A stretch of DNA of 64,000 nt from Vicugna vicugna (taxonomy: Eukaryota), in NCBI GenBank assembly GCA_013265495.1, contig MU057398.1, positions 496,001-560,000 on the forward strand. The letters are read 5' to 3'. Every line of letters begins with the position of its first letter. Position 1 is the first letter of the stretch. The position numbers and the translations under genes are program-made. The notes below the pieces were generated by a model. The model was not told the DNA's origin, did no database searches, and saw nothing but the letters and a program-made list of their open reading frames with translations. Shown here one piece after another: positions 3,689-5,214 of the stretch.

Positions 3689-4137
3689 TGTTACGGAAAT
3701 GACAGGCCAGCCAAGAAACAAGCACCACTCGGAGGGTTGGAGTACTCAGATTTATTACGCCGGCGGGCTCAGAGGGGCTTCTGCTCCGAAGCTCTGAGCA
3801 CCTCCAAGACGTGCACATGAGGTTTTATAGGGTTAATTACAAGTATGGGGCTATTAGCCAATAAGGTTCAAACAACAAAAAGCAAGGAATCAGTACACTG
3901 GAGCTTATCAATTTGGAACAGATCACGTTACTGACACTTGTTGAGCTTGGATTTACGAGTTAGCTTGTTAGCCCAGTAAACTGACACTAAACTTCAGATT
4001 TACGAGTTAGCCCGGCAGAACTTATATCAGTAAACCGACACTTATCACACTTAGATTTGTGACTGAGCTCGTTAGCCCAATAGACTGACACTAAACTTCA
4101 GATTTATGAGTTAGCCCAGCTGGGCTTTTCCTTCACA
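3689..4137 (-). mobile_element. Solo LTR of the same family, inverted (449 bp)
   Basis: Reverse complement of the LTR at 4489-4937 with about one mismatch seen; lacks a 65-bp U3 unit present in the proviral LTR. Confidence 0.95.
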
Positions 4138-4210
4138 GTATTGGAGATTGAACCTGGGACCTCCTGCCTGCAAAGCATACCCTCTACCCTTGAGCTAGAC
4201 CCCCCCCCCC
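4138..4210 (-). mobile_element. 5' half of a Vic-1-like SINE (its 3' half is at 4938-4970 on the + strand)
   Basis: Reverse complement reads GGGGGTCTAGCTCAAGGGTAGAG...GGTTCAATCTCCAATAC and stops at the LTR edge. Confidence 0.85.
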
Positions 4211-4488
4211 ACCGAGGAATTTTAAAGGCACCAGACTCTTACTATGTAGCTAGTAGAACTAAAGCTTGTAAAAGGTAAGAGATTTTGCCTAGCCGTGGGG
4301 TGAGTGACATCCGACAGCCTGAAGCCTTGGGCTTGGGGGTCTAGCTGAGTGGTAGCCAGTGGGCTTGGTGAGTACGAGGTCTTGCCCTCTTCAAAAGCCA
4401 CTGCTCAGGCAATGGCAGCTTCTCTTAACAAACTTCATTCCCGCTTTGGGGAGTCCAGTGCTTTCCAATCAGACAGAAAAAGTGACTT

Positions 4489-4937
4489 TGTGAAGGAAAA
4501 GCCCAGCTGGGCTAACTCATAAATCTGAAGTTTAGTGTCAGTCTATTGGGCTAACGAGCTCAGTCACAAATCTAAGTGTGATAAGTGTCGGTTTACTGAT
4601 ATAAGTTCTGCCGGGCTAACTCGTAAATCTGAAGTTTAGTGTCAGTTTACTGGGCTAACAAGCTAACTCGTAAATCCAAGCTCAACAAGTGTCAGTAACG
4701 TGATCTGTTCCAAACTGATAAGCTCCAGTGTACTGATTCCTTGCTTTTTGTTGTTTGAACCTTATTGGCTAATAGCCCCATACTTGTAATTAACCCTATA
4801 AAACCTCATGTGCACGTCTTGGAGGTGCTCAGAGCTTCGGAGCAGAAGCCCCTCTGAGCCCGCCGGCGTAATAAATCTGAGTACTCCAACCCTCCGAGTG
4901 GTGCTTGTTTCTTGGCTGGCCTGTCATTTCCGTAACA
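4489..4937 (+). mobile_element. Solo LTR of the same family (449 bp)
   Basis: TGTGAAGGAAAAG...TTTCCGTAACA; near-identical to the other two LTRs. Confidence 0.95.
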
Positions 4938-5214
4938 GTACCAACATTAAAAAAATTTTTTTTTAATTCCCCTCCTTACTCGGATGATTTTTGTTGATGA
5001 CACAGCAACACTAACCAGGCAAATAGGGATTTTGGTATAAGAACTATTTTACCCAAACTTCTTTTAGCATCCTTTTCAGTTAATTTCCCCATTTCCTTCT
5101 GTGGAGCAATTTTTAAATTGAAGTATAGTCGATTCACAATGTTCTGTTAATTTCTGGTGTGCAGCCTAGTGATTCAGTTATACATATGGAGCATTTTTTA
5201 AAAAATGAACCAAA

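What the first reader, a model, noticed from the sequence alone, without database searches (positions are those of the whole stretch)
3689..4970. Two inverted solo LTRs have flipped the 351 bp between them, shown by a split SINE and a reversed integrase fossil
Seen: 449-bp LTRs at 3689-4137 (-) and 4489-4937 (+), neither with its own TSD. The 5' half of a SINE abuts LTR2 on the minus strand (...CTCCAATAC), and its 3' half (GTACCAACATTAAAAAA) follows LTR3 on the plus strand. Inverting 4138-4488 rejoins the SINE around LTR3 with a 4-bp TSD, ATAC/GTAC (one mismatch). Independently, 4376-4488 reads EVLPSSKATAQAMAASLNKLHSRFGESSAFQSDRKSD on +, which aligns to the integrase core ([39 protein letters not shown]), while the other pieces of that old ERV are on the minus strand. 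Inference: recombination between the inverted LTRs inverted the spacer, and the segment may still flip. LTR2 has no TSD even after flipping back (ATAA vs AAGT), which implies an extra small deletion or an aberrant integration.
Basis: partly seen in the sequence, partly recalled or inferred. Interest (0 to 1): 0.7.

Follow-up and report, generated by a model that had tools for sequence, protein, structure and literature searches.

The report
Small inversion between twin retroviral LTRs
Two almost identical, back-to-back leftovers of a young retrovirus flank a 351-base piece of junk DNA that lies backwards, a clear but probably ordinary case of repeat-driven flipping, at a spot where three near-identical copies of the same viral repeat sit side by side.

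Summary
Observation confirmed. Two 449-bp LTRs (1 difference) face apart around 351 bp. Contigs of 4 of 4 laid runs carry LTR junctions and show no empty or one-LTR allele. They cannot give orientation, because both orientations have the same four junctions, so an assembly flip stays open (about 12%). New: the neighbouring provirus (LTR1, 604 bp away) appears absent from those runs and shares rare LTR letters with the pair, so one sub-lineage probably hit this spot repeatedly. Best reading (0.55): two nearby integrations, one aberrant, then LTR–LTR recombination, the known retrotransposon-mediated inversion. The left flank ends in or near an old L1 fragment, so the deletion cannot be sized. 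Ongoing flipping is untested. Bold alternative (0.15): two viral DNAs integrated with crossed ends and made the inversion in one step. No gene is touched. The scan had not noted this on other DNA.

The parts
1..856 (+). 3' part of pol (integrase core and C-terminal domain) of a young gammaretrovirus-like provirus; C-terminal tail has W-x7-PLKI like the BET-binding tail of MLV integrase
   Evidence: Pfam rve E 1.7e-13 and MLVIN_C E 2.6e-20; tail printed, MLV tail peptide read in 10.1101/2020.09.21.306696
1044..2597 (+). env reading frame of the young provirus, open for 517 codons
   Evidence: Pfam TLV_coat E 3.1e-91
2571..3084 (+). LTR1, 3' LTR of the young provirus; 514 bp, 65 bp longer in U3 than LTR2/3; 2 substitutions to LTR2, 3 to LTR3; apparently absent at this site in the four laid runs
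   Evidence: single-copy-depth contigs run 524, 3176, 3146 and 85 nt upstream of 3090 instead of stopping about 26 nt inside an LTR (inferred from lengths)
3085..3688 (.). left flank (A): single-copy host DNA; possible integrase fossil at 3267-3157 (-) is not significant; 3615-3688 unassigned
3310..3614 (-). old L1 ORF2-like fragment inside the left flank
   Evidence: aligns to the window's L1 at 16765-17227: 0 of 100 shuffles for 3414-3614, 3 of 300 for 3310-3406; the name L1 ORF2 is recalled from the sequence, not from a library hit
3689..4137 (-). LTR2, solo LTR, 449 bp, both ends intact
   Evidence: left junction present in 4 of 4 laid runs
4138..4488 (.). inverted spacer (B'), 351 bp, no gene
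   Evidence: one 402-nt contig covers it with LTR sequence at the left and 27 unseen nt at the right in 2 of 4 runs
4138..4209 (-). 5' half of a tRNA-like SINE, ending ATAC against the U3 end of LTR2
4229..4488 (+). integrase-core fossil of an old class I-like ERV, reversed relative to the rest of that pol
   Evidence: profile positions 255-321, 7.9 bits; 0 of 100 shuffles; tblastn E 0.002
4489..4937 (+). LTR3, solo LTR, 449 bp, one private substitution (LTR position 227)
4938..4967 (+). 3' half and tail of the SINE, starting GTAC
4991..5101 (-). upstream (N-terminal) integrase-region fossil of the old ERV
   Evidence: 0 and 1 of 100 shuffles in a position-restricted test; not significant unrestricted, 4 of 25
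10138..10489 (-). further upstream pol fossil of the old ERV (RNase H region by position)
   Evidence: 23 tblastn hits, best E 5.2e-6
11778..12780 (-). further upstream pol fossil of the old ERV (reverse transcriptase region by position)
   Evidence: 27 tblastn hits, best E 1.8e-12

Best explanation
A young gammaretrovirus-like ERV sub-lineage integrated twice, 351 bp apart and in opposite orientation, into a decayed stack of old ERV, L1 and SINE sequence. One integration split the SINE with a 4-bp duplication (one base since changed or mis-repaired); the other was aberrant and left no duplication. Each provirus shrank to a solo LTR, and intrachromatid recombination between the inverted LTRs reversed the spacer and carried one TSD copy to the far side. 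A third provirus of the same sub-lineage later landed 604 bp away, plausibly because BET-tethered integrases favour open, enhancer-like chromatin such as an LTR pair. Shown: anatomy, reversal relative to the right flank, reality of junctions in other animals, shared sub-lineage. Inferred: two separate integrations, order of events, recombination, the hot-spot mechanism. The segment has no evident function.
For: Inverted, 448/449 identical, intact LTRs at both breakpoints. Exchanged TSD-like 4-mer in SINE register. Independent reversal of the integrase fossil against three minus-strand pol pieces in collinear order. Junctions seen in 4 of 4 laid runs. Imperfect TSDs are not rare for gammaretroviruses: 2 of 15 XMRV sites had other lengths and 1 of 13 four-base repeats had a mismatch (PMC2857682). 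The third copy shows that this spot can be hit again: it seems absent in 4 of 4 runs and shares minority LTR letters. Alu-mediated inversions under 1 kb are common and 12 of 49 carried deletions (PMC2603318). Integrase tail resembles the MLV BET-binding tail.
Against: Only one of two expected exchanged TSDs is found, at 3 of 4 bases (chance 0.06 by itself). Random placement of 40-500 copies gives only 0.0003-0.05 pairs this close, so the model needs a strong local preference that I could not document in the papers searched. It needs about five events. No one-LTR or non-inverted intermediate was seen in 4 runs. Chimerism of the LTRs cannot be tested with one difference. The provirus's 5' end lies outside the window, so its independent integration is unverified. 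Orientation is not confirmed by any spanning read.
Confidence: 0.55

Rival explanations
1. One-step crossed double integration. Two viral cDNAs made in one germ cell pair their ends crosswise: each intasome holds the U3 end of one molecule and the U5 end of the other. The two intasomes are tethered and strike 351 bp apart. The product is directly flank-provirus(reverse)-inverted spacer-provirus-flank with exchanged TSDs, without homologous recombination; both proviruses then collapse to solo LTRs.
For: Explains closeness, opposite orientation, shared rare sub-lineage, inversion and poor TSDs together. All four junctions end exactly at LTR termini. No one-LTR allele in 4 of 4 runs. Analogous 'hybrid element' transposition is a recognised route to inversions for DNA transposons (PMC2775673); uncoordinated retroviral integration can invert host DNA (PMC5041404).
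Against: I found no report of it for a retrovirus in vivo in my searches. The third copy suggests that separate hits happen here anyway. Four runs are too few to exclude intermediates. The product is the same as under the best explanation.
Confidence: 0.15
2. Assembly flip. Both LTRs and all junctions are real, but the spacer was placed backwards because the flanking repeats are nearly identical; real chromosomes have the ancestral order.
For: Both orientations have the same four junctions (both inner ends are U3, both outer ends U5), so short reads and the contigs cannot distinguish them. No spanning read was seen.
Against: The 64-kb window has no N and resolves three near-identical LTRs with their private differences, which suggests spanning reads (inference; assembly method unknown). 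A 449-bp repeat is within reach of long reads and of most mate pairs.
Confidence: 0.12
3. One LTR duplicated in place. A single solo LTR in the SINE was copied during an inversion: staggered breaks at its two ends (for example integrase nicking, like intramolecular replicative transposition) or template switching produced the second, inverted copy at the far breakpoint.
For: Near identity (1 of 449) and the shared 65-bp-short form; needs only one integration and one solo-LTR event; the missing TSD sits at the new breakpoint.
Against: Host repair would have to hit both LTR termini exactly and there is no usable microhomology at those junctions (by inspection); integrase acting on an already integrated LTR in this way is not established (own knowledge). 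LTR1 is almost as close (2 substitutions), so near identity does not need duplication.
Confidence: 0.08

Closest known systems
Retrotransposon recombination-mediated inversion (RRMI), Alu and L1 pairs, human/chimpanzee (PMC2603318; passages read)
   Same: Oppositely oriented homologous retroelements at both breakpoints, TSDs no longer matching in place, size under 1 kb as for most Alu cases, sometimes with deletion.
   Different: The repeats are ERV solo LTRs of one young sub-lineage, not Alu or L1; chimerism cannot be shown; one TSD pair is missing altogether.
Galileo-generated inversions of Drosophila buzzatii (PMC2775673; passages read)
   Same: Two copies in opposite orientation with exchanged TSDs; breakpoints that attract secondary insertions; the paper weighs ectopic recombination against aberrant (hybrid element) transposition, as here.
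   Different: DNA transposon, large gene-bearing inversion, both TSD pairs perfect and non-inverted chromosomes available; here 351 bp of fossil DNA and one imperfect pair.
Aberrant (uncoordinated) retroviral integration, HIV-1/ASLV (PMC5041404) and XMRV (PMC2857682); passages read
   Same: Missing or mismatched TSD, possible host deletion or inversion beside a provirus.
   Different: Those cases have one provirus and often a truncated viral end; here two LTRs with four intact ends flank the inverted piece.
Recurrent NAHR inversions between inverted repeats in humans (PMC6748972; passages read)
   Same: Highly identical inverted repeats at both breakpoints; orientation hard to call with short reads.
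   Different: Their repeats were 654 bp to 24.2 kb; these are 449 bp with perfect blocks of 226 and 222 bp, below that range, so recurrence cannot be assumed.

Membership tests
TE-recombination-mediated inversion (RRMI / ectopic recombination) | Two homologous element copies in opposite orientation, one at each breakpoint | tested here: met
TE-recombination-mediated inversion (RRMI / ectopic recombination) | Intervening DNA reversed relative to the ancestral order | tested here: met
   SINE register and pol collinearity, relative to the right flank; no outgroup and no spanning read
TE-recombination-mediated inversion (RRMI / ectopic recombination) | Both TSD pairs exchanged | tested here: inconclusive
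   one pair ATAC/GTAC (3 of 4); none at the other site, at most 2 shared bases
TE-recombination-mediated inversion (RRMI / ectopic recombination) | Both elements chimeric | not testable with these tools
   only 1 difference between the LTRs; no parental alleles
TE-recombination-mediated inversion (RRMI / ectopic recombination) | Non-inverted allele or species carrying both elements | not testable with these tools
   contigs cannot give orientation; no mammalian genome held
Solo LTR of a gammaretrovirus-like (class I) ERV | TG...CA termini, no internal sequence, match to the LTR of a provirus with gamma-type pol and env | tested here: met
Solo LTR of a gammaretrovirus-like (class I) ERV | 4-bp TSD on both flanks | tested here: not met
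   absent in place for both; restored at 3 of 4 bases for one only after exchange
Aberrant retroviral integration | One viral end precise, the other damaged or joined by host repair with host deletion, duplication or insertion | tested here: inconclusive
   all four LTR ends intact; host loss at the left site not measurable; left flank has no second copy at 92% or more in 4 runs, so not copied filler
Recurrent (toggling) NAHR inversion polymorphism | Both orientations segregate, on shared haplotypes | not testable with these tools
   no spanning reads among the laid runs

The most novel reading that the evidence does not exclude
The inverted LTR pair is the fossil of a single crossed double integration: two retroviral cDNAs with swapped ends in two tethered intasomes inverted the host DNA between their target sites in one germ-line event, a retroviral counterpart of hybrid-element transposition, and the resulting LTR pair then drew a third insertion of the same virus.
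Probability: 0.15. Interest if true: 0.7.

Novelty: new member of a known kind. Interest (0 to 1): 0.32.

Why it matters
As ordinary LTR-mediated recombination it is a tidy, small example in non-genic DNA, useful mainly as a marker and as a test of whether 449-bp inverted repeats toggle. Its more useful feature is three copies of one young ERV sub-lineage within 1.4 kb, one apparently polymorphic, which makes local re-integration next to existing LTRs testable in a livestock species. If the crossed-integration reading held, it would add a one-step route by which retroviruses invert host DNA, relevant to ERV evolution and to reading vector integration sites.

Tried and rejected
Own genome: none is held, so family copy number and the provirus 5' end could not be read. 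Pairwise and Pfam tests of the integrase fossil failed; only the profile worked. I first read 3411-3380 (minus) as the integrase continuation of the spacer (best ungapped hit; chain test only 11 of 200) and built ideas of an old insertion with a 5-bp duplication at the breakpoint; one search showed that this stretch lies inside the L1 fragment, so I dropped it. An earlier by-eye match near 3590 also failed (53-56 of 100 shuffles). The idea that the left flank is filler copied from elsewhere was rejected: depth over 3090-3653 equals one contig in each of 4 runs. 3615-3688 matched neither L1 nor integrase. A TSD of the SINE itself (AATTCC on both sides after exchange) is no better than other chance matches in the same search. 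An unprocessed U5 end as cause of the missing TSD: LTR2 is followed by TT, as is the viral leader, but two bases are chance-level. Exact-pattern scans of viral and metagenome contigs found nothing. Earlier scan notes near, by sequence, by words and in relatives: nothing. Literature on local clustering of new ERV insertions beside old ones: not found's listing or in passages of PMC8662619. 10.1101/2025.11.08.687349 (passages) was not relevant. A recombinase-driven flip-flop switch was considered and dropped: no recombinase or invertible promoter or gene is in view.

Full report
Setting. No whole genome is held. I call the left flank 3085-3688 A, the spacer 4138-4488 B', and the right flank from 4938 C.

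The LTRs. The longest inverted repeat of the window joins 3686-4137 and 4489-4940 with 351 nt between. The LTRs proper are 3689-4137 (-) and 4489-4937 (+), 449 bp each, TG...CA, with 1 difference. A third copy, LTR1 at 2571-3084 (+), ends a provirus with gamma-type integrase and env (Pfam rve, MLVIN_C, TLV_coat); it has 65 extra U3 bases and 2 or 3 substitutions to the others. One difference in 449 dates the pair to about 0.5-0.9 million years (95% range 0.01-5.2) with assumed rates of 1.2-2.5e-9; gene conversion would make this an underestimate. Neither LTR2 nor LTR3 has its own TSD.

Is the spacer reversed? First, the SINE. Aligned separately to 13 intact copies, the minus-strand 5' half in B' ends and the plus-strand 3' half in C begins with an overlap of exactly 4 columns, ATAC against GTAC; 11 of 13 copies have G there. 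That is a split SINE with a 4-bp duplication whose left copy has been carried to the other LTR. Second, the old ERV. With a profile from the 150 best relatives, B' scores on + at profile positions 255-321, 0 of 100 shuffles under two settings, while its minus strand is at chance, 33-34 of 100. The upstream pieces of pol lie on minus in collinear order: 11778-12780 (E 1.8e-12), 10138-10489 (E 5.2e-6) and 5101-4991 (0 and 1 of 100 shuffles when the test is limited to the expected profile range; 4 of 25 unrestricted). So B' is reversed relative to C by two independent lines.

The left breakpoint is not resolved. A holds an old L1-like fragment at about 3310-3614 on minus (0 of 100 and 3 of 300 shuffles). 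Its last 74 bases match nothing tested and its possible integrase piece at 3267-3157 is not significant (25 of 300). A's end and B's ancestral start share at most 2 bases. I therefore cannot say that A and B were adjacent or how much was lost. Since both LTR ends at this site are intact, loss at integration is more natural than a later deletion ending exactly at an LTR terminus (inference).

Other animals. Of 23 runs listed, 19 hold all 54 sampled words of A. I laid 4 of them, from 4 studies and 2 organism labels, on 3090-4488; 3 of the 4 are marked as possible sources of the DNA. All 4 have a single-copy contig running through A into the first 26 nt of LTR2 with no other letters. All 4 have a contig covering the right end of B' and going on for 27 unseen nt, the length expected for entry into an LTR; in 2 of 4 one 402-nt contig also enters LTR2 on the left. 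No joint from A to B' and no empty or one-LTR allele is listed. Contigs drop rare variants and the table was cut, so this shows presence only. Both orientations have identical junctions, so these data do not test the inversion or toggling.

The third copy. The A contigs continue 524, 3176, 3146 and 85 nt upstream of 3090 at single-copy depth instead of stopping about 26 nt inside an LTR, so LTR1 and its provirus are most likely absent there in those 4 runs (inferred from lengths, letters not shown). All three LTRs share a letter at 3867 that is carried by 2% or less of the summed contig depth of the family in each run, and agree at 3901, 4014 and 4025, where LTR2's letter is also a minority (summed depth is no copy number, and the last two places lie in the U3 repeats). 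So one small sub-lineage has three copies within 1.4 kb. Under random placement of 40-500 copies in 2 Gb, pairs within 400 bp are expected 0.0003-0.05 times and a third copy within 1 kb has chance 4e-5 to 5e-4 (copy number assumed). The integrase tail has W-x7-PLKI, like the MLV tail peptide that binds BET proteins and steers integration to promoters and enhancers (10.1101/2020.09.21.306696, passages; PMC10535802, passages). An LTR pair acting as an enhancer-like attractor is my inference.

Mechanism. Best (0.55): two integrations, one aberrant, two solo-LTR collapses, then recombination between the inverted LTRs. Imperfect TSDs fit gammaretroviral behaviour: of 15 XMRV sites 2 had other lengths and 1 of 13 four-base repeats had a mismatch (PMC2857682, passages). 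Rival (0.15): crossed double integration, in which the four precise junctions are read as two molecules with swapped ends; it yields the same product in one step and explains closeness and shared lineage, and has a DNA-transposon analogue (PMC2775673, passages) and a loose retroviral one (PMC5041404, passages), but I found no in vivo retroviral case in searches (listings only). Assembly flip (0.12): the window has no N and resolves the LTRs' private differences, but no spanning read was seen. In-place duplication of one LTR (0.08). The remainder covers mixed histories.

May it still flip? The repeats offer perfect blocks of 226 and 222 bp. Most Alu-mediated inversions are under 1 kb and 10 of 49 retrotransposon-mediated inversions were polymorphic (PMC2603318, passages); human recurrent inversions studied had repeats of 654 bp or more (PMC6748972, passages). 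Toggling is plausible, probably slow, untested, and would move only fossil DNA.

Comparison and verdict. It works like a retrotransposon-recombination-mediated inversion; two defining features are met, one is inconclusive and two are untestable here. A camelid TE survey (PMC8605555, passages) reports recent LTR activity in two species but the passages seen do not mention such a locus. No supplements were opened; tables of inversions or ERV loci there could bear on novelty. The scan's own notes hold nothing on this DNA. Verdict: real feature, new member of a known kind, interest 0.32; the crossed-integration reading would deserve 0.7.

Noticed in passing
Its 5' part lies outside the window.
   Followed up: partly
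window 3085-3088: The four bases after LTR1 (TTTC) equal the four viral bases between the LTR end and the primer-binding-site-like sequence seen in the loose ends. Chance (about 1 in 200) or an unprocessed U5 end; the upstream TSD would decide.
   Followed up: partly
window 2571-2800: LTR1 carries 65 more bases of U3 tandem units than LTR2/3; contigs show many U3 repeat-length variants in the family (tables 5 and 5c).
   Followed up: no
window 4199-4210: The C run is one base longer than in 3 of 4 laid runs: polymorphism or a long-read homopolymer error.
   Followed up: no
window 21217-21507 (-): A separate integrase-core fossil, best E 3.5e-6; looks ERV-L-like from memory.
   Followed up: no
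window 5215-5320: U6 snRNA-like retrocopy with A-rich tail (recognised from memory, not searched).
   Followed up: no
window 53705-54406: Near-perfect direct repeat, 300 nt or more at 99%, spacing 402 (family D4).
   Followed up: no
window 14780-16030: Another LTR-element remnant with a CpG-rich stretch and primer-binding-site-like sequence at about 15110, seen by eye.
   Followed up: no
window about 34000-46000 (-): L1-CAM-family gene, probably L1CAM (for one exon); the LTR cluster lies roughly 30 kb beyond its 3' end.
   Followed up: partly
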